Source of the DNA: Mycobacterium conspicuum
Lineage (GTDB): Bacteria > Actinomycetota > Actinomycetes > Mycobacteriales > Mycobacteriaceae
Length of the DNA stretch: 32,000 nt
Assembly (NCBI RefSeq): GCF_010730195.1
Contig: NZ_AP022613.1
Coordinates: 2,626,097-2,658,096 of the forward strand
Direction: 5' to 3'
Part shown: piece by piece, positions 10,362 to 29,700 of the stretch
Position numbering within the stretch: position 1 is the stretch's first letter
Layout: each line of letters opens with the position of its first letter
Notes under the pieces: model-generated
The model's input: the letters and a program-made list of their open reading frames with translations, nothing else
Told to the model about the DNA's origin: nothing
Databases searched by the model: none
Translations under genes and position numbers: made by a program

Positions 10362-12098
10362 ATGTCGACCGTGATCGCAGCACCGGCAATGGTTGCCGCG
10401 TCGGCCGCCGACCTGGCCCGCGTCGGGTCGGCCTTGAGCGCTGCCACTGCACTGGCGGCCCGACCCACCACCGCAGTGGTGACGGCCGCCGCGGATGAAG
10501 TGTCGGCGGCCATCGCGTCGCTGTTCTCCCGGCACGGTCAGCGATTCCAGGCGCTCAGCGCCCACGCGGCCGCGTTCCATGCCAACTTTGTGCAGGCCCT
10601 CGACGGGGCAGCGACCGCCTACAAAGCCGCCGAAGCCGCCAACGCCTCTCCGTTGCAGGCGGTGGTGCGCACCGCCCAGATCCTGGCGCTGTTTTCACCC
10701 GTCGCGGCGGCCACCGGGCGCCCGCTGGTCGGCAACGGCGCCAGCGGAACTCCGGGCACCGGACAGGCCGGGAAAGCCGGGGGATGGCTCTATGGAAACG
10801 GCGGCGACGGCGGGTCCGGCGCCCAGGGGCAGGCCGGCGGCAACGGCGGAGACGCCGGCCTGATCGGCAACGGCGGCAGGGGCGGTGCCGGCGGTAAGGG
10901 CGCGGATGGCGCCACCGGAGGCAACGGTGGTGCCGGCGGGCGCGGCGGACTGTTGTACGGCAACGGCGGCGACGGCGGTGATGGTGGCAAGGGCGGCGAC
11001 GGCGCCACCGGCGGCGACGGCGGCGTGGGTGGGCTCGGCGGGCAAGGCGCGGCCTTCTTCAGCCACGCGGGCAGCGCGGGCGCCAACGGCCAAGCCGGCA
11101 CCAGCCTCGGCGACGGTGGTGGCGGTGGTGGCGGCGGCGGGTCGACGTCGGGGGAGTACTCGCCCTACGTCGACATCACGCTCTACCCCGGGCCCAACGG
11201 CTACGACTTCGCGGCCGCCGGCCAGGCGGGGGTCAACAACGCCACGCTCGCCTTCATCACCGCCGACCCCAACGGTCAACCGGCCTGGGGCGGCTACACG
11301 GCCTACGACATCGCCGGCGGCTCGCAGATCTCCTACATCAACAACCAGATCACCAACATGCACACCGCGGGCATCAACGGGACCATCTCGTTCGGGGGCG
11401 CGGCCGGCACGGATCTGTCCGCGGTGCCGGGGCAGACCCCCGCTGCACTAGAGCAGGACTACCTGACCGTCGTAAACACCTACCACATCTACAATCTCGA
11501 CTTCGATGTGGAAGGCGCGCTGCAGGGCAACACCCAGGCACTGACCACTCAGGCGCAGGCGATCGCCATGTTGCAGGCGGAGGAGGCGGCCGCCGGCACA
11601 CCCATCACGGTCTCCTACACGCTGCCGGTGCTGCCGACCGGTTTGGTCGAGGGACAGGGCGGCGGATACAACGTCCTGCAGATCGCTAACACCAACGGCG
11701 TCACCGTCTCTCGCGTGAACGTCATGGCGATGGACTATTACGATCCGTCGGTCACCGACATGGGAACCGCGGCGATCGACGCCGCGACGGCAACACACAC
11801 CCAGTTGATGACGCTGTATCCGTCGCTCACCAGCCAGCAGGCCTGGAACCTGGTCGGCGTGACGCCGCTGATCGGAATCAACGATGACCCAAGCGAGATC
11901 TTCACCCTCGCCGACGCCCACCAGCTGACCACCTTCGCCCAGCAGAACGGCATCGGTGAACTGTCCATGTGGGAGTTGCCGCGCGACGTCACCGGCACGT
12001 TGGGCTCGGTAGACGCCGTCGACGGCAGCGGAATCACCCAGACCCCGTTTGAGTTCTCGCAGATCTTCGAGCAGATCGAGAACGCATCCCAAACCTGA
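10362..12098 (+). CDS. PE-PGRS family protein with a C-terminal GH18 (chitinase-like) domain
   Basis: PE domain [25 protein letters not shown]...[36 protein letters not shown]...AYKAAE. Gly-rich GGxGG repeats follow. Then a ~310-aa domain carries ISFGG, LDFDVEG (DxDxE, nt 11499-11513), MAMDYY and SMWELPRD. Confidence 0.9.
10719..11147 (+). repeat. PGRS Gly-rich coding repeats, ending in nine consecutive Gly codons (11115-11141)
   Basis: Repeated GNGGxGG/GGAGG units are read directly from the translation. The run is GGT GGT GGC GGT GGT GGC GGC GGC GGG. Confidence 0.9.
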
Positions 12099-13983: not shown

Positions 13984-14412
13984 TCAGTCGTAAATAACAG
14001 CCTTCCCTTGCCGCTCAAGATCGGCCAGCCCGGCCCGCATGGCCCGCAGCTGTTCGGGTGAATGCCCCGCCCAATCCGTCAGCTCACCAACGATTTTCAC
14101 GGGCTCTCGGGTGCGGAAGGAGTGCGTCGGATTTCCCGGGAACTTCTTGTCGGTCACGTTGGGGTCGTCCTCGAGGGCGCCTAGCGGTTCCACGATGTAG
14201 ATGCGGCCCGGGCCGTCGCCCGCGGCAAGTTCGGCTCCCCACACCGCGGCATCCAACGTGCGTGTCACGTAGACATGATTTGCGATGCGTCCTGTGCCGT
14301 AATTCGCCTGGTGCCCGGGCACGAGCAGATCACCGACGGCAAGATCGGCTTTCGTGCCGTGCAGAAGGGCGCCCGACTCGTGCAACTCAAACGGCTTCGG
14401 CCTAGCCGGCAC
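13984..14412 (-). CDS. arr: Rifampin ADP-ribosyltransferase (Arr)
   Basis: 142 aa from GTG 14412, with a GGGGGG RBS-like tract upstream. LLHGTKADLAVGDLLVPG...HVYVTRTLDAAVWGAELAA...GRIYIVEPLGALEDDPNVTDKKFPGNPTHSFRTREPVKIVGELTDWAGH closely parallels M. smegmatis Arr as I recall it (FYHGTKANLAIGDLL...AVWGAELA...YIYIVEPTGPFEDDPNLTNKRFPGNPTQSYRT). The length matches too. Confidence 0.9.
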   Translation of the reverse strand: MPARPKPFELHESGALLHGTKADLAVGDLLVPGHQANYGTGRIANHVYVTRTLDAAVWGAELAAGDGPGRIYIVEPLGALEDDPNVTDKKFPGNPTHSFRTREPVKIVGELTDWAGHSPEQLRAMRAGLADLERQGKAVIYD

Positions 14413-14434
14413 CGAGACCCCCCATCGAATCCGG

Positions 14435-15883
14435 TCAGTGGCAGATGTAGACCGCCTTGGTGTTGAAGTATTCCTCAATACCCTTCTTGCCGCGCTCGCC
14501 ACCCCAGCCCGACTGCTTGTGCCCGCAGATGGGCATCGCCGGGTCGGCGCCAAGGGCGCAGTTCACCCAGACCTGGCCCGCGCGAAGCTCATTCGCGACG
14601 CGGTGCGCACGCCCGACGTTTTCAGTCCAGATGGCGCCGGCCAAACCGTATTCGGTGTCGTTGGCCGCGGCGAGGACCTCGTCCTCGTCGTCAAACGGGA
14701 TGACGCTGCCAACCGGCCCGAAGATCTCCTCGCGGATGAGTCGCATGTCGGGCGTCGTGTTCGTCATGATCGTCGCCTCGTAGAAGTAACCCTTGCGGTC
14801 CATCCGTTTGCCGCCGGTGATCACCTCGGCACCCTTCGAAACGCCCTCGGCCACAATACCTTCCACGCGCTGGCGCTGCTTCTCGCTGATCAGCGGCCCA
14901 AGCACCGAGACGGGATCCTCGCTGCCGCCCATCGGCAGCATTTTGGCGAAAGCGGCCAGCCCCTCCACGACCTGGTCGTAGATGGGGCGCTGGACGTAGA
15001 TGCGCGACGTGCAGGAACAGTTCTGCCCCGACCCGACCAGCAGGCCCAGGCCCGCGTTCATGATCGCCTTGTCGAGGTTGGCGTCGTCGAACATGATCAG
15101 CGGCGACTTGCCGCCGAGCTCGAGGGTCAGCCGCTTGAGGTTGCCCGCCGCGGCCTGCACGATCAGCTTGCCGACCTCCGTCGAACCGGTGAACGAGATC
15201 TTGTCGACGTCGGGGTGCGCGGCGAGTGCGGCACCGGTCGTCTCGCCGTAGCCGGTGATGACGTTGAAGACGCCCTCGGGCACTCCCGCCTCGCGGAAGA
15301 TCTGCTCCATCATTAGCGCGGTGAGCGGGGTCTCCTCGGCGGGCTTGAGGACGCAGCTGCAGCCCGCGGCCAGGGCCGGCGCGGCCTTGAGCATCGCGAC
15401 GAAGAACGGCCCGTTCCAGGGAATGATCAGCCCGGCGACGCCGATCGGCTCGAGCTGGGTGAAGTTGTGGAAGTTGTCGTAGTGGCCGAGCAGGCCGTCG
15501 GTGACGACGTTGCTCGACTCGCCATGGATCTTGCCGACCCAGCCCGCGTAATACAGCAGCATGTCGTTGGCCACCTTGATGATCTGCTGCGCAGCGGTGG
15601 CATTCATGCCGTTGTCTTTGGACTCGGCGGCGGCGAGCTCGTCGAGGCGTTCCTTGATGATGGCGTTGGCGCGGAAGAGGATCTCGGCGCGCTGCTGGTG
15701 GGGCAGTTTGCGCCACACGCCCGACTCGAACGTCTCCCGGGCCCGGGCCACTGCCGCGTCCACGGCGGCCTGGTCGGAGTCGGGCACCTCCGCGATCTGC
15801 TCCTCCGTGGACGGGTTGAAGACCGGAACGATGCCCGAGCTGCGGCCTTCGACCGCAGGATCGGTGTCGATGGCGTTACTCAC
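14435..15883 (-). CDS. NAD(P)+-dependent aldehyde dehydrogenase
   Basis: 482 aa, GTG start at 15883 preceded by GAAGGA. Catalytic Glu motif is LELGGKSP, catalytic Cys motif is GQNCSCTSR, and FTGSTEVGK is present. Confidence 0.93.
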   Translation of the reverse strand: MSNAIDTDPAVEGRSSGIVPVFNPSTEEQIAEVPDSDQAAVDAAVARARETFESGVWRKLPHQQRAEILFRANAIIKERLDELAAAESKDNGMNATAAQQIIKVANDMLLYYAGWVGKIHGESSNVVTDGLLGHYDNFHNFTQLEPIGVAGLIIPWNGPFFVAMLKAAPALAAGCSCVLKPAEETPLTALMMEQIFREAGVPEGVFNVITGYGETTGAALAAHPDVDKISFTGSTEVGKLIVQAAAGNLKRLTLELGGKSPLIMFDDANLDKAIMNAGLGLLVGSGQNCSCTSRIYVQRPIYDQVVEGLAAFAKMLPMGGSEDPVSVLGPLISEKQRQRVEGIVAEGVSKGAEVITGGKRMDRKGYFYEATIMTNTTPDMRLIREEIFGPVGSVIPFDDEDEVLAAANDTEYGLAGAIWTENVGRAHRVANELRAGQVWVNCALGADPAMPICGHKQSGWGGERGKKGIEEYFNTKAVYICH

Positions 15884-18009: not shown

Positions 18010-19608
18010 TCAGGGCTGATCGAAGATGGTCATCCCGAGGCCGCTGGGGCTGTTCTGGATATACACCGGTGTCAGCAGGAACGGCGCCATCCCGGTATTG
18101 AACGCCCCGAAGCTGGACGGGTCGGTCGACGTGACCAACGGGCCGGTCGACGCCGTTGTCGTATACGAATACAGCAGCGTCGCACCGTCACTGGTGTAGA
18201 CGGAGATGGTTGTCCCGGCCGGCATGGCCTGGCCGAGCGAGAAGGGGCCGATGGTGATCGGGATTGTGTCGCCGCCGTAAATGGCTGCCGGGATGGCTCC
18301 ATACTGACCACCGGAATCGATCGCCGTGGTAACCGGTTGCGGCGCTCCGCCATTGATCGATACCTCCACGGTGGTCAACGGGGCGCCCGGGACCGACGCG
18401 TTGGGAATCGGCGTCAACGGGTTGGGGCCGAACTCCAGGTAACCCGCGGTGGGGCTGGTTGCGTTGATGAGCACACCCTGACTCAGTTGTCCGGGCAGGG
18501 CCGCGGTCACCGGGGAGGTGTTGGGGCCCAATGCATTTGGGCCGATACCCAGAATGCCGGTACCGCTATCACCCCAGTTGGTGAAGGGTGGCACGTCGGG
18601 GAACACCCACTCGATGGTCGGTAGCTTGGTGATCTCGATCGGGGAAAGGCCTCCGGGGAGCGGGATTTCGATCGGATGCGCCAGGCTCAAGGTGATGCCG
18701 CGGAGTGAAAAGAGCGGGACGTCAACGTTGATCGGCGTGGTCGCGATCCCATTTCCGAAATTCACGGTCGTGTTGAACGTGAGGCAGTAATCGGTGATGA
18801 AATTCCCCGAGCCGGGTTCGCCGTAGGTCACGTGAGTGAACCCGGTGGGCATGCCGAGGTGCTGGAGTCCGATGTCGGTGACGGGGATGACGAGGCCGGC
18901 GGATCCGGTGTCGACGATCACCGACACGCTGCGCCCGCCGTTGACCGAGATATTGACCATCTCGTCGATCGACCCCGAGTTCGTCCCGGTGGTGGACACC
19001 TGGTGCAGCGGGACGGTCGCGTTCACCGCCGTCCCGGCGCCGGCCACCCCGTTCTTGCCGGACAGCCAGCCGCCGAGGCCTCCGACACCCCCGACCGCGC
19101 CGGCACCGCCGGAGCCCCCAGCACCCCCATTGCCGATCAGCCCCGCGTTACCGCCGCTTCCGCCGGCGAGCCCCGCTGCCGTTTGGGAGTAACCGTTGCC
19201 ACCGTTGCCGTACAGGATTCCGCCGGGCTTGCCGTTGGGGTGCGCGGCCGTCCCGTTCGCGCCGTCGCCCACGAGCGGGCGCCCGGTCAGCGCCGCGACG
19301 GGCGAAAACACGGCCAGGCTCTGAGCGCCCGACGCCTCGGCGGCGGCGTACGCACTCTCCGCCGCGCTCAGGGCCTGCACGAACCGCGCATGAAACGCCG
19401 CCGCCCGCGCACTGAGCGCGTGGAACTGCTGGCCGTGACCGGAAAACAGTGACGCGATCGCCGCCGATACCTCATCACCGGCCGCGGCGATCACCCTGGT
19501 GGTCCGGGCCGCTGCGGCCGCATTGACCGCGTCGAGCGACGACCCGATGCTCGCCGCATCTTGCGCGGCCGCCGCCACCACCTCGGGTGCGGTGATCAGG
19601 TAAGACAT
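18010..19608 (-). CDS. PE-PGRS protein with C-terminal PecA-type aspartic protease domain
   Basis: PE domain MSYLITAPEVVAAAAQDAASIGSSL...YAAAE, followed by a short PGRS. The protease domain carries both catalytic triplets: VIVDTGSAGLVIP (Asp codon 18910-18912) and AIDSGGQYGAIP (Asp codon 18316-18318). Confidence 0.9.
   Translation of the reverse strand: MSYLITAPEVVAAAAQDAASIGSSLDAVNAAAAARTTRVIAAAGDEVSAAIASLFSGHGQQFHALSARAAAFHARFVQALSAAESAYAAAEASGAQSLAVFSPVAALTGRPLVGDGANGTAAHPNGKPGGILYGNGGNGYSQTAAGLAGGSGGNAGLIGNGGAGGSGGAGAVGGVGGLGGWLSGKNGVAGAGTAVNATVPLHQVSTTGTNSGSIDEMVNISVNGGRSVSVIVDTGSAGLVIPVTDIGLQHLGMPTGFTHVTYGEPGSGNFITDYCLTFNTTVNFGNGIATTPINVDVPLFSLRGITLSLAHPIEIPLPGGLSPIEITKLPTIEWVFPDVPPFTNWGDSGTGILGIGPNALGPNTSPVTAALPGQLSQGVLINATSPTAGYLEFGPNPLTPIPNASVPGAPLTTVEVSINGGAPQPVTTAIDSGGQYGAIPAAIYGGDTIPITIGPFSLGQAMPAGTTISVYTSDGATLLYSYTTTASTGPLVTSTDPSSFGAFNTGMAPFLLTPVYIQNSPSGLGMTIFDQP
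19039..19281 (-). repeat. PGRS Gly-rich coding repeats
   Basis: GNGGNG/GGAGGSGGAG units in the translation of 18010..19608. Confidence 0.85.
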
Positions 19609-19786: not shown

Positions 19787-22303
19787 GTGAGTGGCGCGAG
19801 CGAACAGCTTGACGAACTGGTGGCGGCTCGCGATCAGATGGAACATCTGGTGCGGGTCATCGTCGAGATCGGTTCCGATCTGGACCTGGATGTGACGTTG
19901 CGTCGGATCGTCAGTGCGGCGGTGGAACTGAGCGGCGCCCGGTACGGAGCTTTGAAACTGCGTGCCACCGACGCCAGCCCGTCCTCCGTTGTGCGCGCCG
20001 GAATCAACGACGACGCGGCGCGGCGGCTCAGTGGTCTGCCAGTAGGAGCGGGTATCCGGATCGACGATCTGACCGCTGATCCCGAAGGCGCCGCGCTGCT
20101 CGGTGGCGATCCGCCGATGCGGGCACTCCTCGGCCTACCGATCACCGTGCGCGCGGCCGACTTCGGGAGCCTCTACCTGCTCGACGACCGGCCCGGCCAT
20201 GTGTTCTCTGACTCGCAGGAGAACGCCGTGCGGGCGTTGGCCACTGCGGCGGCGGCGGCCATCGACAACGCGCGGCTGTTCGTGCGGGAACGTGAATCGG
20301 CGAAGTGGACGAAGGCCAGCCGCGAGATCACGACGGCATTGTTGTCCGGCGACCCCCGGACGAGGCCGTTGCAACTCATCGTGAACCGCGCGCTGGAGTT
20401 GGCCGGAGCCGAGCAGGCAATCTTGTTGATCCCCAGCGAACCCGATCTGCCCGCCGACCAGGTCGACGCGCTCGTGGTGGCCGCCACGGCAGGCCGCTAC
20501 TCCTCCGAAGTGATCGGCCGGCAGGTGCCGATGGCCGGCTCCACCACGGGCGGTGTCGCGCGTCGCGGCCTGCCGCTGATTACCGATTCCTTTCAATACC
20601 CGATCGAGGGATTCACCGATGTCGGCGAGCGCTCGGCGATCGTCATGCCGCTGATCGCCGACGACGCGGTGCTGGGTGTGATCGCGGTGGCGCGTGACCC
20701 GCGGCAGCCGCCGTTCGACAGCGATTACCTCGAACTTGTCAGTGACTTCGCCCGCCACGCGGCGATTGCCTTGGCGCTGGCGGCGGGTCGCGAACATGCG
20801 CTCAACCAGGAACTCGCTCAAGCCGACAACGTCGATGACGCGGTGCATACCGCGGCGGAGGAATTGCGTCGGATCTGGCGGGCACGCCGGGTCCTGGCCG
20901 TGACCTTCCCCAGCCGCCCTTCCTCCGCTGAGGCAGCGTCCGGGGCACCGCGGCTGGTCTCGGTCGGCGAACCCGCACAGTGGTTCGATCTGCCGCCCCA
21001 GACTCGTCAGCTGCTCGGCTCGGTGCGCGCCGGCGACCTGCTGACCCCCAACACCACGCAGCCCGGAACGGCGGCCATCGCGCTGCAGCATCCCGACGGT
21101 GTGCTCGTCGTCTGGATCGATCTGGCAGAAGAACGGCCGTTCACCCTCGAGGACCAGACCCGGCTCACCGTGCTGGCCGGTCGCCTCGGCCAGGCGCTGC
21201 AGCGGGTGCACCAGGTCGACCAACAGCGCGAAACCGCGCTCGCGCTGCAACACGCCATCCTGGGCCCGGCTGACCTGCCGCACGGGTTCGCGGTGCGCTA
21301 TCAGGCCGCCGCCCGCCCGTTACAGGTCGGCGGCGACTGGTATGACGTCGTCGAGTTGGAGGACGGCCGGATCGCGTTGATCGTCGGCGACTGTGTCGGC
21401 CATGGGCTGGACGCTGCCACCGTGATGGGGCAGCTGCGCAGCGCCTGCCGCGCGCTACTTTTCCAAAATCCAAGTCCCGCAACCGCTCTCGAGTGGCTGG
21501 ACCGGTTCGCGGCCCGGCTGCCCGGCGCCCAGTGCACCACCGCCGTGTGCGCGGTGCTCAACCGCGAGACCGGTGAACTCGTGTACTCCAGCGCCGGGCA
21601 CCCGCCGCCGATCGTGGCGCACGCCGACGGGACCACCCGGATACTCGACGATGGCCACACCATCGCTTTGGGCATCCGACCCCACCGGTCGCGCCCCGAA
21701 GCCAGCGTGATCCTGCCGGCGCGCGGCTGCCTGGTGCTCTACACCGACGGTCTGGTCGAACGTCGCCGCATACCGCTCGATGACGGCATCGCCCGCGCGG
21801 CCGCCTTCGTTCAAGAGGGCCTCGCCGCCCCGCTGGATGACTTGGCGGACCAGATCATGTCCCGTCTCGCCCCCAGCGGCGGCTATCAGGACGACGTGGC
21901 GCTCCTCATGTACCGCCACCCCGCCCCGCTGGAGCTGGAGTTTCCCGCCCACGTCAGCCAGGTCGCGACGACCCGGATGGCGTTACGCAGCTGGTTGAAA
22001 CGAGCCGGGGTGAACGCCGCCGAGACGATGAAGGTGCTGATTGCCGCGGGCGAGGCGGTCGCCAACGCCATCGAACACGGACACCGCAAAAATCCGGACT
22101 GCACGATTCGTCTGGACGCGACCGCGCTGGTCGACGAGGTGCAGTTGACCATCGCCGACACCGGCTCGTGGAAGACCCCCCAACCGGCCGTCAACGCCCA
22201 TCGCGGTCGCGGTATCACCCTCATGCGAGGCCTGATGCACGACGTCACGATCGACCCCGACGCCGCCGGGACAACCGTCCACCTATCCGCGAGGATCACA
22301 TGA
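19787..22303 (+). CDS. Multidomain partner-switching regulator: tandem DevS/DosT-like GAF domains, third GAF-like region, PP2C (SpoIIE) phosphatase, RsbW-like HATPase_c kinase
   Basis: GTG 19787, 838 aa. GAF-A/GAF-B carry LDVTLRRIVSAAVELSGARYGAL, DPPMRALLGLPI, FGSLYLLDD, AIDNARLF and REITTALLSG. The PP2C domain carries VGGDWYDV and GDCVGHGLDAA. The kinase domain carries GEAVANAIEHG, ADTGSW and GRGITLMRGL. Confidence 0.9.
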   Translation: MSGASEQLDELVAARDQMEHLVRVIVEIGSDLDLDVTLRRIVSAAVELSGARYGALKLRATDASPSSVVRAGINDDAARRLSGLPVGAGIRIDDLTADPEGAALLGGDPPMRALLGLPITVRAADFGSLYLLDDRPGHVFSDSQENAVRALATAAAAAIDNARLFVRERESAKWTKASREITTALLSGDPRTRPLQLIVNRALELAGAEQAILLIPSEPDLPADQVDALVVAATAGRYSSEVIGRQVPMAGSTTGGVARRGLPLITDSFQYPIEGFTDVGERSAIVMPLIADDAVLGVIAVARDPRQPPFDSDYLELVSDFARHAAIALALAAGREHALNQELAQADNVDDAVHTAAEELRRIWRARRVLAVTFPSRPSSAEAASGAPRLVSVGEPAQWFDLPPQTRQLLGSVRAGDLLTPNTTQPGTAAIALQHPDGVLVVWIDLAEERPFTLEDQTRLTVLAGRLGQALQRVHQVDQQRETALALQHAILGPADLPHGFAVRYQAAARPLQVGGDWYDVVELEDGRIALIVGDCVGHGLDAATVMGQLRSACRALLFQNPSPATALEWLDRFAARLPGAQCTTAVCAVLNRETGELVYSSAGHPPPIVAHADGTTRILDDGHTIALGIRPHRSRPEASVILPARGCLVLYTDGLVERRRIPLDDGIARAAAFVQEGLAAPLDDLADQIMSRLAPSGGYQDDVALLMYRHPAPLELEFPAHVSQVATTRMALRSWLKRAGVNAAETMKVLIAAGEAVANAIEHGHRKNPDCTIRLDATALVDEVQLTIADTGSWKTPQPAVNAHRGRGITLMRGLMHDVTIDPDAAGTTVHLSARIT

Positions 22304-22614
22304 TGCCCACCTCGCTCACCCTCGACACCGCACGCTGCAGCGAAGGGAAGCTCACGTTGAGGGCAGCGGGGGAGATCGACCTGAGCAATGTCGACGTATT
22401 CGACCAGACCCTCGGCGCTGCCACGGCCGAGGCCGCCGGACGCGGGGAAACCCTCACCGTCGACCTCACCGCGGTGGAGTACCTGGACAGCGCCGCAATC
22501 AACGTGCTGTTCACCCGCGCGGACCATATCCGCCTGCTCGCGAATCCACTGCTGATACCCGTTTTCAAAGTCAGCGGCCTGTCCGAGCTGGTCGCCGTCG
22601 AATCGGCGGGTTGA
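22300..22614 (+). CDS. STAS-domain anti-sigma-factor antagonist
   Basis: Its ATG overlaps the upstream stop (ATGA, 22300-22303). 104 aa with LRAAGEIDLSNVDVF and LTVDLTAVEYLDSAAINVL, where the Ser sits in the usual phospho-acceptor context. Confidence 0.85.
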   Translation: MMPTSLTLDTARCSEGKLTLRAAGEIDLSNVDVFDQTLGAATAEAAGRGETLTVDLTAVEYLDSAAINVLFTRADHIRLLANPLLIPVFKVSGLSELVAVESAG

Positions 22615-22672: not shown

Positions 22673-23377
22673 TTATTGCGGCGGAGTCGGGGTCATGGAG
22701 CCGATGTAGTAGGTTTCGTGCCCGGTCGGGTAGCCGCCGCCGTCGGTGCAGATATGAACGTGGTCGTAGTGGTTGGCGGTTTCGTTCCCAAGGTCGGCCG
22801 TCCAACTCCCGGACGTGGGTCCCAGGTAGATCTTCTGCCGCCAGATGACGTGGTTGATGCCCCAACGTTTGGCATTCGCCAGGGCGAAGCCGGCGATTTG
22901 GTTGCCGAGTTCGATGCCTTCCGGGCTGTTGTGGTCCGGGATCATCACGTCGATCGCCAATCCGTTGGGATGCCAGGGCAGGGCGTCTTGCCGGTACCCG
23001 TAGATGGTCTTGATCTGTGGAAACAACACGCCGATGACACGCGCCGCCCAGATGGTCTTGACCTGCAGCCTGTCTTCGGACGCGACGCCGGCGGACAACG
23101 CGACCTGGAACTGTTGGCCGGGGCTGGGCGCGTTGGCGGCCAACGATTCGACCTCGGCGGGACTGGCGACGCGGGGGCCGTTGGCCGGCGCGGGCCCCGG
23201 GCTCGGCGGCGGATTGACCTTGGTGGTTTCAACGCGGCTCTGCGGCTGGGGAGGCTGGCCGTGCGACTCGGTGACCTGGGCATAGATCATCGCGGCAGAG
23301 ACGAGGAGCGAGGCGGCGACCGCGGACCAGGCCCCCCGGCTCTTGACTGACGTGCCTTTGTCTCCAAACAAGCCCAC
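22673..23377 (-). CDS. Membrane-anchored/exported LAS-type (M15-like) zinc peptidase homologue
   Basis: GTG at 23377. An N-terminal hydrophobic anchor (AWSAVAASLLVSAAMIYA) is followed by a Pro-rich linker. The C-terminal domain has H-x6-D (WHPNGLAID) and H-x-H (YDHVHI), the LAS metallopeptidase ligand pattern. Confidence 0.75.
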   Translation of the reverse strand: MGLFGDKGTSVKSRGAWSAVAASLLVSAAMIYAQVTESHGQPPQPQSRVETTKVNPPPSPGPAPANGPRVASPAEVESLAANAPSPGQQFQVALSAGVASEDRLQVKTIWAARVIGVLFPQIKTIYGYRQDALPWHPNGLAIDVMIPDHNSPEGIELGNQIAGFALANAKRWGINHVIWRQKIYLGPTSGSWTADLGNETANHYDHVHICTDGGGYPTGHETYYIGSMTPTPPQ

Positions 23378-23513: not shown

Positions 23514-25028
23514 GTGTCACTTCTGGTCGTGCTCCCCGAGGTAGTGCAGTCGGCGGCCGCCGAGCTGCGTGACATCGGGGCGGAACTGGGTGCGGCGCGG
23601 GTGGTCGCTGCGGCTCCGACGACCGGGCTACCGGCGGCCGGCGCCGACGAGGTATCGGTGGCGGTGGCGGCGCTGTTCACCGGCCACGGTCGGCAGTTCC
23701 ACACGGTTAGCCTGCAGGCCAGCGCGTTTCACCAACGGTTTGTCCGGGCGCTGCACTCGGGGGCCGGGGCGTACCAGCTCACCGAGGCGCTGGGTGGCCG
23801 CCCGCTGATCGGCAACGGCGCCGACGGCGGCCCCGGGCAACCCGGCGGGCCCGGGGGATGGCTCTATGGCAACGGCGGGGCGGGCGGCGCAGGCACGGCG
23901 CCGGGAATGGCCGGTGGGCCCGGCGGGGCCGCGGGGCTGATCGGCGACGGGGGCCGCGGGGGCGCCGGCGGCGCAGGCGCGAATGGGGGGGCCGGCGGCC
24001 GCGGCGGCTTGTTGTTCGGTCACGGCGGAACCGGTGGCCAGGCCGGCAGCGGCGCGGCGGGCGGCGCCGGCGGTGCCGCGGGATTGATCGGCAACGGCGG
24101 CGCGGGGGGTGCCGGCGTGAGCGGGCTTCATGGCGGCCCTGGCGGCAGCGGCGGCGCGCTGCTCGGCCGCACCGGGCCGGTGGGCGCCGGTCCGACGGGC
24201 ACCGTACCGCTGCAGCTCCTCAGCGGCGCTAACGGCGTCGAGCCAGCGATCAACATCTCCGTCAACGGCGGGCCCAGTGTGCCCGTCGTGGTCGATACCG
24301 GATCCGAAGGCCTGGTTATTCCGTTGCGGGACATCGGAATTCTCGGTCTCGGACACCCCACCGGCGTTACCGGCGTCGCCTATGGTTCGGGGATACTTCT
24401 GGTCTGCTGCACCTTTCAAACCACGGTGAATTTCGGGAACGGCATCGTCTCCGCGTCGACTAGCGTCAACATTCCGGTTCTGACGATCCCGATCTCGCTT
24501 GACGGTGTGCGCTTCATGTTGGCGGGCCAGACCTACGGTTACGCCGACGGCATCTTGGGCATCGGGGCCAACGCGACGGCCCCGGGGCCCAGTAGCGTGA
24601 CGACCGCGTTGCCGGGCGAGCTCAACCAGGGTGTGCTGTTCAACGAACCCCAGGGCTACCTGCAGTTCGGGCCCAACCCGCTACCCGCCGGGGTGCCGGT
24701 GGTCGGAGCACCGTTCACCGCCCTGAACGTATCCATCGACAACGGGCCGATGCACAGCGTTTCCGCCATCATCGACAGCGGCGGCGAGCAAGGCTACCTC
24801 CCTTCGTCGATTGGGAGGTCGATCGGGAGCGTGCCGCCGGGCACCACGATCTCGGTCTACACCAGCGACGGGAACACGCTGCTGTACTCGTACACGACAA
24901 CCGCGGGGAACAGCCCGACGGTGGTATCCGGCGACCAGATGAACACCGGCAACGAGCCCTTCGCGCTGGGACCGGTGTACATCTCGTACAGCCCGAGCGG
25001 CGTCGGCGCCACGGTCTTCGACACCTAG
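23514..25028 (+). CDS. PE-PGRS protein with C-terminal PecA-type aspartic protease domain (second copy)
   Basis: GTG 23514 (VSLLVVLPEVVQSAAAELRDIGAEL...), T7SS motif YQLTE, then a longer PGRS. Catalytic motifs are VVVDTGSEGLVIP (Asp codon 24294-24296) and IIDSGGEQGYLP. Its TAG stop overlaps the convergent stop of the next gene (CTAG, 25025-25028). Confidence 0.9.
   Translation: MSLLVVLPEVVQSAAAELRDIGAELGAARVVAAAPTTGLPAAGADEVSVAVAALFTGHGRQFHTVSLQASAFHQRFVRALHSGAGAYQLTEALGGRPLIGNGADGGPGQPGGPGGWLYGNGGAGGAGTAPGMAGGPGGAAGLIGDGGRGGAGGAGANGGAGGRGGLLFGHGGTGGQAGSGAAGGAGGAAGLIGNGGAGGAGVSGLHGGPGGSGGALLGRTGPVGAGPTGTVPLQLLSGANGVEPAINISVNGGPSVPVVVDTGSEGLVIPLRDIGILGLGHPTGVTGVAYGSGILLVCCTFQTTVNFGNGIVSASTSVNIPVLTIPISLDGVRFMLAGQTYGYADGILGIGANATAPGPSSVTTALPGELNQGVLFNEPQGYLQFGPNPLPAGVPVVGAPFTALNVSIDNGPMHSVSAIIDSGGEQGYLPSSIGRSIGSVPPGTTISVYTSDGNTLLYSYTTTAGNSPTVVSGDQMNTGNEPFALGPVYISYSPSGVGATVFDT
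23796..24188 (+). repeat. PGRS Gly-rich coding repeats
   Basis: Repeated GGAGG/GNGGAGG/LIGxGG units in the translation of 23514..25028. Confidence 0.85.
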
Positions 25029-26766: not shown

Positions 26767-26769
26767 TCC

Positions 26770-29700
26770 GTGAGCCGTCGGGTTGGCGGTCGAATGAAGC
26801 GTAACGGGGATGAGCCGGTCAAGATCCGTGGCTACCGTGTCGAGCTGGGGGAGGTTCGGGCCGCGCTGGCGGAGCTGGCGGGGGTGGATCGGGCGGCGGT
26901 GATCGTCCGCGAGGACCGCCCCGGCGACCGGCGACTGGTCGGCTATGTCACCGAGTCCCGCCGTGGGGCGGTGGACCCGGCCGGGGCGCGCGCGGGGCTG
27001 GCGGAGCGGTTGCCGTCCTACATGATTCCGGCCGAGGTGCTGGTGCTCGAAGCGCTGCCGTTGACCGCCGACGGCGACGTCGACACCCGCGCCCTGCCGG
27101 CACCGGAGCCGCGCATCGACCCCCGCATCAAGCAAGTGCTGCACGACGTCTTCGCGCGCCTGCTCGGCGTGGACGAGGTCGGCATCGACGAGTCGTTCTT
27201 CGATCTGGGCGGGGATTCGTTGTCGGCGATGCGGGCCATCACCGCGGTCAACGCGGCCCTGGACGTCGACCTCAAGGTGGGCGCCCTGTTCAACTCGCCG
27301 ACGATCGCCCAGTTGGCGGCGCGCATCGACGGCAACTCTGGTGGGCTCATGCCGTTGCGGGCCGGGGCGCGGCCCGCGGTGATTCCGTTGTCGTTCGCGC
27401 AGAGCAGGCTGTGGTTCATCGCCCAATTGCAGGGGCCCTCACCGGTTTACAACCGGTCGATGGCGCTGCGCCTGCGAGGGCAGCTGGATGTCGACGCACT
27501 GCAGGTGGCGCTGGTCGATCTGGTGGGTCGGCACGAGAGCCTGCGCACCGTGTTTTCGGCGGTCGACGGGATACCCCAGCAACTGATCGTTTCGGGCGAT
27601 CGCGCCGACTTCGGCTGGGGGGTCGTGGATGCGACGGGATGGCCGGCGGACACGTTGAGCGAGGCCATCGAAGAGGCGGCGCGTGGCTGTTTCGACCTGG
27701 AAGCCGAAATTCCGTTCCGGGCAAGGCTTTTCCGTGTCGCAGACTGCGAGCACGTGTTGCTCATCACGCTGCACCACATCGCCGGAGACGGTTGGTCGAT
27801 CGGTGTGCTGGCCGCCGATCTGGGAGCGGCCTACGTCAGCCGGTGCGCCGGCCAGGCCCCGGGCTGGGCCGAATTGCCGGTGCAGTACGTCGATTACGCG
27901 CTGTGGCAGCGGGAGAATCTCGGTGATCTGGCGGACCGAAACAGCCCATTGGCGGCCCAAGTCGGCTATTGGGAAGAGGCGCTCGCAGGCATGCCCGACC
28001 GCCTTGCTCTGCCGACCGATCGGCCCTACCCGTTGGTCGCCGACCACCGTGGCGCCAGCGTGGTGGTGGAGTGGTCGGCCGACTTGCAGCGGCGGGTGGG
28101 AAGCGTTGCCCACGAATATAATTCGACCAGCTTCATGGTGGTTCAAGCCGCCCTGGCGGCGCTGTTGTCGCGCCTGAGCAGCAGCGCCGACGTGGCGGTG
28201 GGATTCCCGATCGCCGGCCGCGGAGATCCGGCCCTGGACGGCCTGATCGGATTCTTCGTCAACACCCTGGTGTTGCGGACCGACCTGACCGGGAATCCGA
28301 CCTTCACCGAGCTACTCGATCAGGTACGACAGCGAAGCCTGTCCGCCTACGAGCACCAGGACGTGCCCTTCGAAGCGCTTGTCGATAGGCTCAACCCCCC
28401 GCGATCGCGGACGCATCACCCGCTGATCCAGGTGATGTTGGCCTGGCAGAACTTCACCTGGCAATACGACGACCCCGCCGCCGGGCTGGCGCTGGGGGAT
28501 CTGCAAGCAAGTCCCATGGCGCTGCGCACCCACACCGCCCGCATGGATCTGGTGTTCTCCCTGGCTGAACGCTTCACCGACAACGGTGTGCCCGACGGCA
28601 TCGTCGGGACGGTGGAATTCCGCACCGACGTGTTCGACGCCGCCAGCATCGAGACGCTGGTGCGGCGTTTCGAAAAGGTCTTGGTCGCGGTGACGGCCGA
28701 CCCGACGGCGCGGGTGTCGTCGTTGGATCTGCTCGACGCCGGGGAACGGGCCCTGCTGCAGGGCTGGGGTAACCGGTCGGCATTGACTCGGGCCGCGCCC
28801 GCGGCTGTGGCGATTCCCGAGGTGTTTGCCGCCCAGGCCGCGCGGTCGCCCGACTCGGTGGCGCTGGTGTGCGCAGACCGCTCGTGGACGTACCGGGACG
28901 TCGAGGAAGCGTCGAATCGGTTGGCGCACTTACTTGTTGACCGTGGCATCGGCTCGGGCGCGTGTGTGGCGTTGCTGTGTGAGCGGTCGGCGGAGGCGAT
29001 CGTCGCGATCCTGGCGGTGCTCAAGACCGGGGCGGCGTACGTACCGCTGGACCCGGCCCACCCGGCGGCGCGTACCGATTTCATGCTCGGGGATGCCGCG
29101 CCGACGGCCGCGATCACCACCGCCGCACTGCGCCCGCGGCTGGATGGACACGACTTGCCCGTCCTCGACGTCGCCGACCCGTGCATCGCCGGCTACCCGT
29201 GCACGAGCTTGCCCGCGCCGGCGGCGGACGGCATCGCGTACGTCATCTACACCTCGGGCACGACCGGTGCGCCCAAGGGTGTGGCCATTACGCATCGCAA
29301 CCTGACCCAGCTGATCGCGTCGCTGGACGCGGGCCTCCCGACGGCCGCGGAGCAGGTGTGGACGCAATGCCACTCCTATGTCTTCGACTTCTCGGTGTGG
29401 GAGACCTGGGGTGCGCTCTTGCGGGGCGGCCGGCTGGTGGTGGTGCCCGAGTCGGTGGCGGGCTCGCCGAGCGACTTCCACGAACTGCTGGTCTCGCAGC
29501 GGGTCAACGTGATCACCCAGACCCCGTCGGCGGTGGGGGCATTGTCGACCGACGGGCTGGACTCCGCGGCCTTGCTGGTGGGCGGCGAGGCATGCCCGGC
29601 CGAGGTGGTGGATCGGTGGGCCCCCGGGCGGGTGATGATCAACGCCTACGGTCCCACCGAAACCACCATCTATGTGGCGCTGAGCGGAGCCCTGCGGGCG

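What the first reader, a model, noticed from the sequence alone, without database searches (positions are those of the whole stretch)
19787..22614. DevS/DosT-type tandem GAF sensor rewired to a PP2C phosphatase + anti-sigma kinase, with an overlapping STAS partner and the heme-ligand His replaced
The first ~340 aa track, block by block, my memory of the GAF-A/GAF-B sensor of the dormancy kinases DevS/DosT: LD..TLR.IV..A..L..ARYGA, ..PPMR.FLG.P., FG.LYL.D, A.ANARL, then W..A.R.I...LLSG. The output here is not a HisKA_3 kinase. It is a third GAF-like region, a SpoIIE/PP2C phosphatase and an RsbW-like HATPase, with the STAS antagonist gene overlapping the stop (ATGA). At the position where DevS/DosT carry the proximal heme His (Y-H-PPM, DevS H149 as I recall), this protein reads G-D-PPM (Asp codon 20108-20110). 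The segment just upstream also looks roughly 10-12 aa shorter. So it may be a DosS-lineage sensor that has lost heme or gas sensing, or binds a different ligand, and feeds a sigma-factor partner-switching cascade. No sigma factor gene is in the window.
Basis: partly seen in the sequence, partly recalled or inferred. Interest (0 to 1): 0.7.

Follow-up and report, generated by a model that had tools for sequence, protein, structure and literature searches.

The report
Heme-less DevS-like sensor on phosphatase-kinase switch
A Mycobacterium conspicuum two-gene signalling module whose sensor end was copied from the heme-based dormancy-kinase family, lost the heme-binding histidine and a neighbouring helix, and was spliced onto a phosphatase/kinase pair that controls a small switch protein: a clear domain swap, but an ordinary kind of bacterial regulator.

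Summary
ORF 19787-22303 (838 aa) is GAF-A, GAF-B, a third reduced GAF, a PP2C/SpoIIE phosphatase and an RsbW-like HATPase_c_2 kinase. A STAS gene overlaps its stop codon.

- **DevS/DosT match.** GAF-A matches solved DevS/DosT GAF-A at E~1e-23. DevS His149 aligns with Asp108, and DevS residues 120-130 are deleted.
- **Chimera.** Residues 18-340 are 53-61% identical to mycobacterial GAF-GAF-HisKA_3 kinases that almost all keep the His and the segment. DosT-like kinases are only 37% identical. Residues 338-838 are 61-65% identical to the C-terminal 500 aa of ~1380-aa hybrid kinase-receiver-PAS-GAF-PP2C-kinase proteins. The junction is sharp, and the same STAS gene follows in both families.
- **Family pattern.** The deletion is present in all 121 orthologs. 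The His position varies among them (D/G/H/E/N).

Heme loss is therefore strongly inferred, though untested. No sigma factor gene is nearby, so the output is inferred from Rv1364c and RsfB homology. I rate it a new variant of a known kind of partner-switching regulator, of moderate interest.

The parts
19787..22303 (+). Gene 1: 838-aa GAF-A / GAF-B / GAF-C / PP2C / HATPase_c_2 protein. It has a GTG start, and NCBI annotates an 821-aa form that starts at M18.
   Evidence: ORF; domains. It is 100% identical to 'SpoIIE family protein phosphatase [Mycobacterium conspicuum]'. The N-terminal 'EQLDELVAARDQ' upstream of M18 is conserved in orthologs, which favours the long form.
19859..20302 (+). GAF-A (aa 25-172), DevS/DosT-type but remodelled.
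   Evidence: phmmer to 4ynr/2w3d/2vzw gives E 4e-23 to 1e-22. The AF2 model versus DosS/DosT GAF-A gives TM 0.66-0.71 and rmsd 4-5 A at 40-44% identity. dN/dS is 0.21.
20051..20056 (+). Deletion site (between G89 and I90), where DevS V120-P130 and the equivalent 'GVLGxLIxxPxP' segment of related kinases are missing.
   Evidence: Alignments. The deletion is present in all 121 orthologs. The segment is full length in 117/119 of the closest kinases.
20108..20110 (+). Asp108 codon (GAT), at the position of the proximal heme ligand DevS His149 / DosT His147.
   Evidence: The position is variable in orthologs: D64/G19/H9/E9/N8. It is His in 116/119 of the closest kinases.
19955..19963 (+). Lys57 and Arg59, at the positions of the DevS distal H-bond residues Glu87 and His89.
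   Evidence: Alignment. The roles of E87/H89/Y171 are taken from PMC4082495.
20174..20176 (+). Tyr130, equivalent to the distal Tyr171 of DevS and retained here.
   Evidence: It is Tyr in 120 of 121 aligned sequences.
20348..20797 (+). GAF-B (aa 188-337), preceded by a long inter-GAF helix (aa 142-187, nt 20210-20347). This is the most constrained part of the protein.
   Evidence: phmmer to M. smegmatis DevS GAF-B 2vjw gives 2e-10. The model versus 2vjw/2vks gives TM 0.86 and rmsd 1.9-2.2 A. dN/dS is 0.087.
20798..20800 (+). Chimeric junction (Ala338, 'ALNQELAQAD...'). Upstream sequence derives from a GAF-GAF-HisKA_3 kinase lineage, and downstream sequence from a hybrid kinase-REC-PAS-GAF-PP2C-kinase lineage.
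   Evidence: BLASTP alignments to three paralogs all begin exactly at aa 338. tblastn matches cover residues 321-821 of the 821-aa query.
20798..21274 (+). GAF-C (aa 338-496). It is a reduced third GAF domain that ends in a ~40-residue helix running into the phosphatase.
   Evidence: Sub-threshold Pfam GAF hits in 9/21 family members. AF2 pLDDT is 86. The top 29 Foldseek PDB hits are GAF-containing structures (best E 3e-5); further down a few LuxR-type autoinducer-binding domains appear.
21275..21922 (+). PP2C/SpoIIE (PPM) phosphatase domain (aa 497-712). It carries the motifs GGDWYD, GDCVGHG, YTDGL and QDDVA.
   Evidence: Pfam SpoIIE 9e-48. It aligns to Rv1364c 3ke6 with these motifs matched. 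The motifs are nearly invariant in orthologs.
21923..22300 (+). HATPase_c_2 (RsbW/SpoIIAB-like) Ser kinase / putative anti-sigma domain (aa 713-838).
   Evidence: Pfam 1.2e-25. It matches 3ke6, SpoIIAB and RsbW structures. The NCBIfam spIIAB/RsbW hits are far below the equivalog cut-offs.
22291..22295 (+). Conserved GAGGA, a Shine-Dalgarno-like element inside the end of gene 1 and upstream of the STAS start.
   Evidence: The junction 'GCGAGGATCxxCTGATG' is conserved in orthologs and paralogs.
22300..22614 (+). Gene 2: STAS anti-sigma-factor-antagonist-like protein. It is 104 aa from ATG 22300, or 103 aa from the conserved ATG 22303.
   Evidence: Pfam STAS 6e-8. NCBIfam ant_ant_sig 2.7e-10, below cut-off. 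The best PDB matches are anti-sigma-F antagonist RsfB 8ih8 and 4qtp. The gene immediately follows gene 1 in all 16 orthologous loci and about 20 paralogous loci.
22489..22491 (+). Ser64 of the STAS protein ('YLDS'), the predicted phospho-acceptor.
   Evidence: It is invariant in 37 aligned ortholog and paralog STAS sequences. It aligns with the 'FLGS' serine of RsfB.

Best explanation
This is a self-contained, translationally coupled two-gene partner-switching module of Mycobacterium conspicuum.

**Components (shown by homology).** Gene 1 encodes a cytoplasmic protein with three GAF domains, a PPM/PP2C phosphatase and an RsbW-type serine kinase. Gene 2 encodes its STAS substrate.

**How it probably works (inferred).** The kinase domain phosphorylates Ser64 of the STAS protein and the phosphatase removes the phosphate. 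The balance is set by the N-terminal GAF array through the long helix that links GAF-C to the phosphatase. Unphosphorylated STAS then binds the RsbW-like domain, or a stand-alone anti-sigma factor, to free an alternative sigma factor. By analogy with Rv1364c and RsfB this is most plausibly SigF, encoded elsewhere in the genome.

**Evolutionary origin (shown by sequence comparison).** The protein is a chimera. Residues 1-337 come from a mycobacterial GAF-GAF-HisKA_3 sensor kinase subfamily of the DevS/DosT heme-sensor superfamily. Residues 338-838, together with the STAS gene, come from a ~1380-aa GAF-HisKA-HATPase-REC-PAS-GAF-PP2C-kinase family. The kinase-receiver-PAS input of that second family was replaced.

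**State of GAF-A (inferred).** In this lineage GAF-A lost an 11-residue segment and the proximal heme histidine, and changed two of the three distal H-bond residues. It very probably no longer binds heme. The domain is still under purifying selection. GAF-B is the most constrained part of the protein and is the better candidate for the working sensor or signal-transmitting element.
For: **Domain content.** Pfam and PDB sequence hits, and GAF-C by AF2 plus Foldseek.

**Specific homology to DevS/DosT.** E 4e-23 and 1e-22 for GAF-A and 2e-10 for GAF-B.

**The parent family outputs through histidine kinases.**
- In an exhaustive scan of 1.84 billion representatives, the close non-fragment hits under 1000 aa are GAF-GAF-HisKA_3 kinases.
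- Only one 50%-identity cluster (P0121, Mycolicibacterium obuense) has the PP2C output.

**Heme signature in relatives.**
- About 65 of 72 representatives keep His and the segment.
- 116/119 and 117/119 of the closest mycobacterial kinases do so. Those kinases are 53-61% identical to the query's tandem GAF, against 37% for a DosT-like kinase.

**Heme signature in this family.** The deletion is in 121/121 orthologs, the His position is variable, and 17/121 have no His anywhere in the loop.

**His149 is needed for heme.** The H149A mutant (Mtb DevS) and the H150A mutant (M. smegmatis) lose heme (PMC4082495).

**Structure.** GAF-A deviates from DosS/DosT GAF-A (TM 0.66-0.71) despite 40% identity. 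GAF-B superposes on DevS GAF-B at TM 0.86.

**Chimera.**
- The junction is sharp at aa 338, with 61-65% identity over the last 500 aa to the paralogs.
- The paralog architecture is known from Pfam and is widespread in Mycolicibacterium.
- Ortholog and paralog coexist in one genome: L008 and L035 in Mycobacterium sp. TY814, and L012 and P0380 in Mycolicibacterium sp. 018/SC-01/001.

**STAS partner.** It follows gene 1 in all loci with an invariant Ser, and its best structural-sequence match is RsfB.

**Selection.** dN/dS is 0.09-0.24 in all domains.

**Biochemistry of relatives.**
- The relative Rv1364c phosphorylates and dephosphorylates its own STAS serine and binds SigF in vitro (as summarised in PMC10950880).
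- Sensor-PPM signalling through a helical linker, with modular exchange of sensors, is described in PMC12143880.
Against: - No experiment exists on this protein or any ortholog, and no paper on the family was found.
- No sigma factor or stand-alone anti-sigma gene lies in the window. Nothing is conserved next to the operon in other species. The output target is therefore only an analogy.
- Most orthologs, though not this one, carry His at the neighbouring position 107 (95/121), and 9/121 have His at 108. Non-canonical heme ligation in parts of the family cannot be excluded.
- Tyr130, the distal Tyr equivalent, and the 'FGxLYL' strand remain invariant. This could reflect a retained ligand pocket or only fold stability.
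- The AF2 models rest on shallow alignments (34 and 58 sequences), and I could not inspect their coordinates.
- The kinase G1 box is non-canonical ('DTGSW'), as it also is in Rv1364c.
Confidence: 0.6

Rival explanations
1. GAF-A still binds heme, or another tetrapyrrole or cofactor, through a non-canonical ligand. The module would then remain a gas or redox sensor that simply reports through a phosphatase/kinase switch instead of a histidine kinase.
For: - Tyr130 (= DevS distal Tyr171), Leu84 (= Leu114, part of a ligand gate in PMC9062744) and the PPMR and FGxLYL motifs are conserved.
- 95/121 orthologs have His at position 107 and 9/121 have His at 108.
- GAF-A is under purifying selection, with dN/dS 0.21.
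Against: - This protein has Gly107-Asp108 and no His in the loop from 100 to 110.
- H149A and H150A mutants of DevS lose heme (PMC4082495).
- The 11-residue segment kept by 117/119 of the closest kinases is gone in all orthologs.
- E87 and H89 are replaced by Lys and Arg.
- The loop is the most variable and least confidently modelled part of GAF-A.
Confidence: 0.08
2. The DevS-derived tandem GAF no longer senses anything. It serves as a dimerisation scaffold. Regulation would come from GAF-C, from the phosphorylation state of the STAS protein, or from other partners.
For: - GAF-A shows loss of its ancestral ligand site.
- GAF-C and its linker helix are inherited unchanged, together with the phosphatase, from the parent family, so the original input-output coupling may run through GAF-C.
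- PPM phosphatases of this type are controlled by regulated dimerisation of the linker (PMC12143880).
Against: - GAF-B is the most strongly constrained domain of the protein (dN/dS 0.087, 88% mean identity). That is more than expected for a mere spacer.
- The swap replaced a kinase-receiver-PAS input, which suggests selection for a new input rather than for none.
Confidence: 0.2
3. The module does not control a sigma factor. The STAS protein and the RsbW-like kinase would regulate some other target, such as an enzyme, a transporter or another signalling protein, as some partner-switching systems do.
For: - No sigma or anti-sigma gene lies in 32 kb.
- Nothing beyond the two genes is conserved in synteny across species.
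- The NCBIfam RsbW, SpoIIAB and antagonist models are hit only far below their equivalog cut-offs.
Against: - The closest solved relatives are Rv1364c (3.6e-50) and the anti-sigma-F antagonist RsfB.
- Both belong to the mycobacterial SigF network, according to PMC10950880.
Confidence: 0.15
4. Heme loss came before the rewiring. On this view a histidine kinase had already lost the His and the segment, and that degenerate sensor was later fused to the phosphatase module.
For: - In a neighbour-joining tree of tandem GAFs, the PP2C family is sister to P0127. P0127 is a HisKA_3 kinase that lacks the segment and reads 'RHDP' at the His site, like the ortholog consensus 'AHDPP'.
Against: - P0127 is a single metagenomic sequence with no relative above 61% identity.
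- Its deletion has different boundaries, being 9 residues longer, and it has also lost the Tyr.
- It is only 50% identical to the query, whereas His-bearing kinases reach 61%.
- The tree has no support values.
Confidence: 0.25

Closest known systems
M. tuberculosis DevS/DosS (Rv3132c) and DosT (Rv2027c) heme-GAF sensor kinases
   Same: - Both have a tandem GAF-A/GAF-B joined by a long helix.
- GAF-A is 40-44% identical and GAF-B has the same fold (TM 0.86).
- The motifs ARYGA, PPMR, FGxLYL (distal Tyr) and DNARL are shared.
   Different: - The proximal His is replaced by Asp.
- DevS residues 120-130 are deleted, and E87 and H89 become Lys and Arg.
- There is no HisKA_3/HATPase_c output and no DevR partner.
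- DevS/DosT fall in a distant clade, and a DosT-like representative is only 37% identical over the tandem.
Uncharacterised mycobacterial GAF-GAF-HisKA_3-HATPase_c kinases (P0510, P0517, P0124 and P0430-P0548, found for example in M. nebraskense, M. europaeum and Mycolicibacterium cosmeticum)
   Same: - They are the closest relatives of residues 18-340, at 53-61% identity.
- They occur in the same genera, and even in the same species, as the orthologs.
   Different: - They keep the His (116/119) and the full segment (117/119).
- They output through a histidine kinase.
~1380-aa GAF-HisKA-HATPase_c-REC-PAS-GAF-PP2C-HATPase_c_2 proteins of Mycolicibacterium, Mycobacterium, Amycolatopsis and Frankia (for example M. 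novocastrense, and M. chubuense 'PAS/PAC sensor hybrid histidine kinase')
   Same: - The last 500 aa (GAF-C, PP2C and the RsbW-like kinase) are 61-65% identical.
- A homologous STAS gene follows, with the same overlapping junction.
   Different: - The input there is a phosphorelay (kinase, receiver and PAS) instead of a DevS-type tandem GAF.
M. tuberculosis Rv1364c (PAS-PP2C-RsbW-like kinase-STAS)
   Same: - The PP2C and HATPase_c_2 pair is homologous (E 3.6e-50 over aa 496-837), with matching catalytic motifs.
- The logic is the same: a phosphatase and a kinase act on one STAS serine (PMC10950880).
   Different: - The sensor in Rv1364c is a PAS domain, not three GAFs.
- In Rv1364c the STAS domain is fused, whereas here it is a separate gene.
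GAF-containing partner-switching PPM phosphatases: C. difficile RsbZ (tandem GAF), S. coelicolor OsaC (GAF+PAS), and generic GAF-GAF-PP2C-HATPase_c_2 proteins such as L039
   Same: - GAF sensors are coupled to a PPM phosphatase through a helical linker (PMC12143880).
- L039 has the same overall domain order.
   Different: - Their GAFs are generic. L039's are only about 24% identical to the query and lack the heme-family motifs.
RsbR non-heme globin of the Bacillus stressosome (an analogy, from my own knowledge and the reference list of PMC10950880)
   Same: - A heme-sensor fold has lost heme and feeds a partner-switching cascade.
   Different: - The fold is unrelated (globin, not GAF) and the complex architecture is different.

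Membership tests
DevS/DosT-type heme-GAF sensor module | Specific sequence similarity of GAF-A and GAF-B to DevS/DosT, beyond generic GAF similarity | tested here: met
   E is 4e-23 and 1e-22 for GAF-A and 2e-10 for GAF-B. No other GAF structure reaches E<0.01. The closest non-fragment proteins under 1000 aa in the 1.84-billion-protein scan are GAF-GAF-HisKA_3 kinases.
DevS/DosT-type heme-GAF sensor module | Proximal heme ligand His (DevS H149 / DosT H147 / M. smegmatis H150) | tested here: not met
   The position is Asp108, codon 20108-20110. It is variable in orthologs.
DevS/DosT-type heme-GAF sensor module | Full-length 'GVLGxLIxxPxPLRL' segment (DevS 117-133) between helix 2 and strand 3 | tested here: not met
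   Eleven residues (DevS 120-130) are absent in the query and in all 121 orthologs.
DevS/DosT-type heme-GAF sensor module | Distal Tyr (Y171) and its H-bond partners (E87 in DevS, H89) | tested here: inconclusive
   The Tyr is kept (Y130, Tyr in 120 of 121 aligned sequences). E87 is replaced by K57 and H89 by R59.
DevS/DosT-type heme-GAF sensor module | HisKA_3 + HATPase_c output that phosphorylates a NarL-type regulator | tested here: not met
   No HisKA_3 domain is present. The output is SpoIIE + HATPase_c_2.
DevS/DosT-type heme-GAF sensor module | Binds heme b | not testable with these tools
   This needs recombinant protein and UV-visible spectroscopy.
Partner-switching PPM (SpoIIE/RsbU-type) phosphatase | PPM/SpoIIE catalytic domain with the metal-binding Asp motifs | tested here: met
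   Pfam SpoIIE 9e-48. GGDWYD, GDCVGHG, YTDGL and QDDVA align with Rv1364c and are nearly invariant in orthologs.
Partner-switching PPM (SpoIIE/RsbU-type) phosphatase | N-terminal sensor domain joined to the phosphatase by a long helix | tested here: met
   The GAF-C model ends in a helix at residues 117-155 (aa 454-492) that runs into the SpoIIE domain. The concept comes from PMC12143880.
Partner-switching PPM (SpoIIE/RsbU-type) phosphatase | Cognate STAS substrate with a conserved phosphorylatable Ser | tested here: met
   An adjacent overlapping STAS gene is present in all loci. Ser64 is invariant and aligns with the RsfB serine.
Partner-switching PPM (SpoIIE/RsbU-type) phosphatase | Phosphatase activity on the phospho-STAS protein | not testable with these tools
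   A biochemical assay is needed.
Rv1364c-type multidomain regulator | PP2C fused to an RsbW-like HATPase_c_2 kinase | tested here: met
   One alignment to 3ke6 covers aa 496-837, E 3.6e-50.
Rv1364c-type multidomain regulator | PAS sensor at the N-terminus and a STAS domain fused at the C-terminus | tested here: not met
   There are three GAF domains instead of a PAS domain, and the STAS protein is a separate gene.
RsbW/SpoIIAB anti-sigma factor kinases | HATPase_c_2 fold with N-box and G-boxes | tested here: met
   Pfam 1.2e-25. 'EAVANAIEHG' and 'GRGITLM' are present, and G1 reads 'DTGSW' as in Rv1364c.
RsbW/SpoIIAB anti-sigma factor kinases | Equivalog-level match, and a cognate sigma factor gene in the operon | tested here: not met
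   The NCBIfam spIIAB and RsbW scores are 33-43 bits against cut-offs of 135-155. No sigma gene is in the window or conserved in synteny.
~1380-aa hybrid kinase-REC-PAS-GAF-PP2C-HATPase_c_2 family | C-terminal GAF-C/PP2C/HATPase_c_2 block followed by a STAS gene | tested here: met
   61-65% identity over 500 aa, and the STAS protein is 40-53% identical.
~1380-aa hybrid kinase-REC-PAS-GAF-PP2C-HATPase_c_2 family | N-terminal GAF-HisKA-HATPase_c-REC-PAS input | tested here: not met
   This input is replaced by the DevS-type tandem GAF upstream of aa 338.

The most novel reading that the evidence does not exclude
The transplanted, heme-less DevS-type tandem GAF may be a working sensor for a different signal. 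GAF-B, the most constrained domain at dN/dS 0.087, would be the real ligand-binding or transmitting element. The ortholog family would then hold a natural series of variants: 9/121 with His at the canonical position, 95/121 with His one residue earlier, and 17/121 with none. Some of these might still bind heme. That series would give a direct experimental handle on two open points about DevS-family sensors: what GAF-B does, and how signal leaves GAF-A. It would also be a documented case of one sensor cassette driving either a histidine kinase or a Ser phosphatase/kinase switch.
Probability: 0.15. Interest if true: 0.6.

Novelty: new variant of a known kind. Interest (0 to 1): 0.4.

Why it matters
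Multidomain PP2C/RsbW-type regulators with PAS, GAF or receiver inputs are common in actinobacteria. The system type is therefore not new.

What is new is a cleanly resolved natural domain swap. Both parent families are identifiable, the junction can be placed to the residue, and a heme-sensor module was moved from a histidine-kinase output to a partner-switching output. That module also lost its heme ligand and part of its pocket while staying under purifying selection.

This supports the idea that sensor modules are exchangeable across output classes through helical linkers (PMC12143880). It gives a natural 'heme-minus' DevS-like scaffold for asking how GAF-A and GAF-B transmit signal. It adds an unstudied input to the alternative-sigma (probably SigF) networks of non-tuberculous mycobacteria. 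It also warns against automatic names such as 'Hypoxia sensor ... DosT', which one database gives to an ortholog.

Tried and rejected
1. **GAF-C 'QHP' motif as a heme ligand.** A profile-profile alignment (hhalign, 61% probability) put the nearly invariant 'QHP' motif of GAF-C (His435) opposite the heme 'HHPPM' motif. I rejected this. In the AF2 model the motif sits in the hairpin between strands 4 and 5, not in the loop before strand 4.
2. **P0127 as proof that heme loss preceded the fusion.** It is sister to the family in an NJ tree. However, it is a singleton with different deletion boundaries and lower identity than His-bearing kinases. I kept it only as a rival.
3. **Conserved neighbours or a sigma factor.**
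 - Only the two genes are conserved across 12 orthologous loci.
 - No sigma domains were found in the window.
4. **Sequence-only detection of GAF-C.** A profile search against PDB found nothing relevant, and Pfam is sub-threshold. A structure prediction was needed.
 - PMC5121028 (CO/NO-bound DosS structures) is not held, so I could not cite which secondary-structure element DevS 120-130 forms. That it is a helix lining the heme pocket is my recollection, supported only indirectly by its near-universal conservation and by its loss or alteration in most representatives lacking the His, though one (P0131) keeps the His with an altered segment.
6. **Literature.** Two full-text searches found no paper on this family.
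7. **L039.** This GAF-GAF-PP2C-kinase protein was checked as a possible distant member. Its GAFs are generic, at about 24% identity.

Full report
**Observation**

The + strand ORF 19787..22303 encodes 838 aa, and a 104-aa ORF (22300..22614) overlaps its stop codon. Pfam finds two GAF matches, SpoIIE/PP2C at aa 526-711 (9e-48) and HATPase_c_2 at aa 719-834 (1.2e-25). It finds STAS in the small ORF. The protein is 100% identical to 'SpoIIE family protein phosphatase [Mycobacterium conspicuum]'. NCBI starts that protein at M18. The residues upstream of M18 ('EQLDELVAARDQ') are conserved in orthologs, which favours the longer ORF.

A sequence search of all PDB chains gave the following matches.

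| Query region | Match | E-value |
|---|---|---|
| aa 30-167 | DevS GAF-A (4ynr/2w3d) | 4e-23 |
| aa 30-167 | DosT GAF-A (2vzw) | 1e-22 |
| aa 195-336 | M. smegmatis DevS GAF-B (2vjw) | 2e-10 |
| aa 496-837 | Rv1364c phosphatase-kinase (3ke6) | 3.6e-50 |

No other GAF structure reaches E<0.01.

In these alignments DevS 'PPY-H149-PPMR' lies opposite 'LGG-D108-PPMR'. An 11-residue gap removes DevS V120-P130. The Asp codon is GAT at 20108-20110. DevS Glu87 and His89 correspond to Lys57 and Arg59, and the distal Tyr171 corresponds to Tyr130.

**The third GAF**

Residues 338-496 have no Pfam hit above threshold. Nine of 21 family members give weak GAF hits (best 3.8e-4). An AlphaFold2 model built on 34 ortholog and paralog sequences has mean pLDDT 86 and a helix/strand order typical of a small GAF. 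It ends in a ~40-residue helix. Foldseek against PDB returns GAF-containing structures as its top 29 hits (best E 3e-5, TM about 0.5-0.6), including DosT GAF-A at rank 14; a few LuxR-type autoinducer-binding domains appear further down. The 'third GAF-like region' is real.

**Where the sensor comes from**

HMMER read 1.84 billion representative proteins with aa 18-345 as query and found 227 hits at E<=1e-30.
- Among the best 150 hits, 87 are shorter than 1000 aa.
- Those that are not fragments are almost all GAF-GAF-HisKA_3-HATPase_c kinases.
- Exactly one 50%-identity cluster combines this tandem GAF with PP2C and HATPase_c_2. It is P0121 from Mycolicibacterium obuense.
- About 65 of 72 representatives with an alignable GAF-A keep 'GFPxxHPPM' with the His, and keep the 'GVLGxLIxxPxPLRL' segment.
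- The representatives that lack the His mostly also have an altered or missing segment; one (P0131) keeps the His with an altered segment.

A further search recovered 119 mycobacterial kinases of this type, for example from M. nebraskense, M. europaeum and Mycolicibacterium cosmeticum.
- They are 53-61% identical to the query's tandem GAF, against 37% for a DosT-like representative.
- 116/119 have the His, and 117/119 have the full-length segment.
- Their GAF-A is about 49-53% identical to DevS/DosT GAF-A.

The sensor therefore descends from a heme-signature kinase subfamily that is a paralog of DevS/DosT. It does not descend from DevS/DosT themselves. In a neighbour-joining tree, DosT-like sequences fall in a distant clade.

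**Where the output comes from**

A scan of one genome per species found two classes of match.
- Full-length orthologs at 68-80% identity occur in Mycobacterium (M. nebraskense, M. colombiense, M. arosiense, M. gordonae and others) and in one Mycolicibacterium.
- A second class matches only residues 321-821 of the 821-aa query, at 59-70% identity.

That second class comprises ~1380-aa proteins. Their Pfam architecture is GAF-HisKA-HATPase_c-REC-PAS_4-[GAF-C]-SpoIIE-HATPase_c_2. They are widespread in Mycolicibacterium and also occur in Amycolatopsis and Frankia.

BLASTP alignments to three of them all begin exactly at Ala338 ('ALNQELAQAD') and run to the C-terminus at 61-65% identity. A homologous STAS gene (40-53% identical) follows immediately in every ortholog and paralog locus. 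The junction 'AGGATCxxCTGATG' is conserved, giving an SD-like GAGGA and a stop/start overlap. Both families coexist in single genomes: L008 and L035 in Mycobacterium sp. TY814, and L012 and P0380 in Mycolicibacterium sp. 018/SC-01/001. They are therefore paralogs.

The protein is thus a chimera. A DevS-type tandem GAF replaced the kinase-receiver-PAS input of a pre-existing GAF-C/PP2C/kinase + STAS module.

**Is heme binding lost?**

Evidence for loss:
- His149 (DevS), His147 (DosT) and His150 (M. smegmatis) are the proximal ligands. H149A no longer shows a His-ligated heme spectrum, and H150A does not stably bind heme (PMC4082495).
- Here the residue is Asp. All 121 orthologs carry the deletion.
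- The former ligand position is free to vary (D64/G19/H9/E9/N8), and 17/121 have no His anywhere in the loop.
- The tandem-GAF model (pLDDT 81) shows helix 2 running almost directly into strand 3. Its lowest GAF-A confidence is in the ex-ligand loop.
- GAF-A superposes on DosS/DosT GAF-A with only TM 0.66-0.71 despite 40-44% identity. GAF-B reaches TM 0.86 on DevS GAF-B at 27-29% identity.

Evidence against a dead domain:
- dN/dS among 17 orthologs is 0.21 for GAF-A. The other values are 0.087 (GAF-B), 0.155 (GAF-C), 0.17 (PP2C) and 0.24 (kinase).
- Tyr130 is Tyr in 120 of 121 aligned sequences.

I conclude that canonical heme binding is very probably lost in this protein (about 90%). GAF-A retains a structural or new role, and GAF-B is the most constrained element.

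**Mechanism**

Shown by homology:
- The PP2C motifs GGDWYD, GDCVGHG, YTDGL and QDDVA match those of Rv1364c and are nearly invariant.
- The kinase has the N-box and G2 box, and the same atypical G1 as Rv1364c.
- STAS Ser64 ('YLDS') is invariant in 37 sequences and aligns with the serine of the anti-sigma-F antagonist RsfB.

Inferred by analogy:
- Rv1364c phosphorylates and dephosphorylates its STAS serine and binds SigF in vitro (PMC10950880).
- RsbU-type phosphatases are controlled through a helical linker (PMC12143880).
- By these analogies, the GAF array sets the kinase/phosphatase balance on Ser64. The unphosphorylated STAS protein then engages the RsbW-like domain or a separate anti-sigma factor, and an alternative sigma factor is released.

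Neither the signal nor the sigma factor is known. No sigma gene is in the window, and nothing beyond the two genes is syntenic across species.

**Comparison and novelty**

The kind of system is well known: a partner-switching PPM phosphatase, with or without a fused RsbW-like kinase, carrying a PAS, GAF or receiver input. Examples are Rv1364c, OsaC and RsbZ. A generic GAF-GAF-PP2C-HATPase_c_2 protein (L039) shows that even the domain order is not unique. No curated NCBIfam model covers the family, and no paper on it was found.

Three things are new: the demonstrable origin of the sensor in the heme-GAF kinase superfamily, its loss of the heme signature, and the residue-level chimeric junction. 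I rate it a new variant of a known kind, with interest 0.4.

**Caveats**

- The AF2 alignments are shallow, and I could not inspect the coordinates.
- The tree has no support values.
- The role of DevS 120-130 as a pocket-lining helix is from memory plus co-variation.
- All functional statements are homology-based.

Noticed in passing
window 18010-19608 (-) and 23514-25028 (+): Two PE-PGRS genes, each with a C-terminal PE-PGRS_C aspartyl-peptidase-like domain, flank the operon divergently (Pfam 4e-81 and 5e-101). These flanks are not conserved in other species' loci.
   Followed up: partly
window 22300-22305 and loci L001-L033 junctions: The junction '...GCGAGGATCxxCTGATG' is conserved in orthologs and paralogs. 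The conserved STAS start is therefore the second ATG (22303, 1-nt TGATG overlap). The ATGA overlap at 22300 occurs only in the window and in L003.
   Followed up: yes
window 19787-19837: NCBI annotates the protein from M18 (821 aa). The upstream residues 'EQLDELVAARDQ' are conserved in orthologs, which suggests that the GTG at 19787 (838 aa) is the real start.
   Followed up: partly
window 12201-13979 (+): This ORF encodes a GAF-PAS-PAS-GGDEF diguanylate-cyclase-type protein. It is a second GAF-containing signalling gene, 6 kb upstream.
   Followed up: no
window 13984-14553 (-): This ORF is an Arr-ms rifampin ADP-ribosyltransferase homolog (Pfam 8.6e-49).
   Followed up: no
window 10332-12098 (+): This is a PE + PGRS protein with a weak glycosyl-hydrolase-18-like C-terminal region (E 9.5e-6, below the Pfam cut-off).
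   Followed up: no
window 26767-32000 (+): One + strand frame stays open for more than 1744 codons to the window end and looks like a non-ribosomal peptide synthetase. The ORF list shows only Arg-rich antisense ORFs there, because the gene runs off the window.
   Followed up: partly
window 22673-23377 (-): This 234-aa ORF lies immediately downstream, convergent with the operon. It has a hydrophobic N-terminus and a Pro-rich linker, and ends in '...HYDHVHI...'. It has no Pfam or NCBIfam match.
   Followed up: partly
window 21089-21097 (aa 435-437 'QHP' region of GAF-C): A nearly invariant 'ALQHP' motif occurs in GAF-C across orthologs and paralogs. hhalign placed it opposite the heme His motif, but in the model it lies in the hairpin between strands 4 and 5. 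Its role is unexplained.
   Followed up: partly
window 20348-20797 (GAF-B): GAF-B is the most constrained domain (dN/dS 0.087, against 0.16-0.24 elsewhere), although no ligand is known for DevS-family GAF-B domains.
   Followed up: partly
L012 11264-13036 (Mycolicibacterium sp. 018/SC-01/001): A ~590-aa ORF lies 2.8 kb downstream of the ortholog operon. It is 34-36% identical to the tandem GAF and is probably a DevS-like kinase.
   Followed up: no
P0128 (721-aa metagenomic protein): ECF sigma-factor regions 2 and 4 are fused in one predicted ORF to a GAF-GAF-HisKA_3-HATPase_c kinase that has also lost the heme His. It is either a real sigma-kinase fusion or a gene-calling artefact.
   Followed up: no
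P0412 / UniRef A0A0J6VB23 (Mycolicibacterium obuense ortholog): One database names an ortholog 'Hypoxia sensor histidine kinase response regulator DosT'. This name is misleading, because the protein has neither a histidine kinase domain nor the heme ligand.
   Followed up: partly
L025 and L026 (metagenome-assembled genomes): Shorter relatives of the ~1380-aa family start at REC-PAS (837 and 931 aa), without the N-terminal kinase. They are either split genes or further input variants of the same output module.
   Followed up: partly
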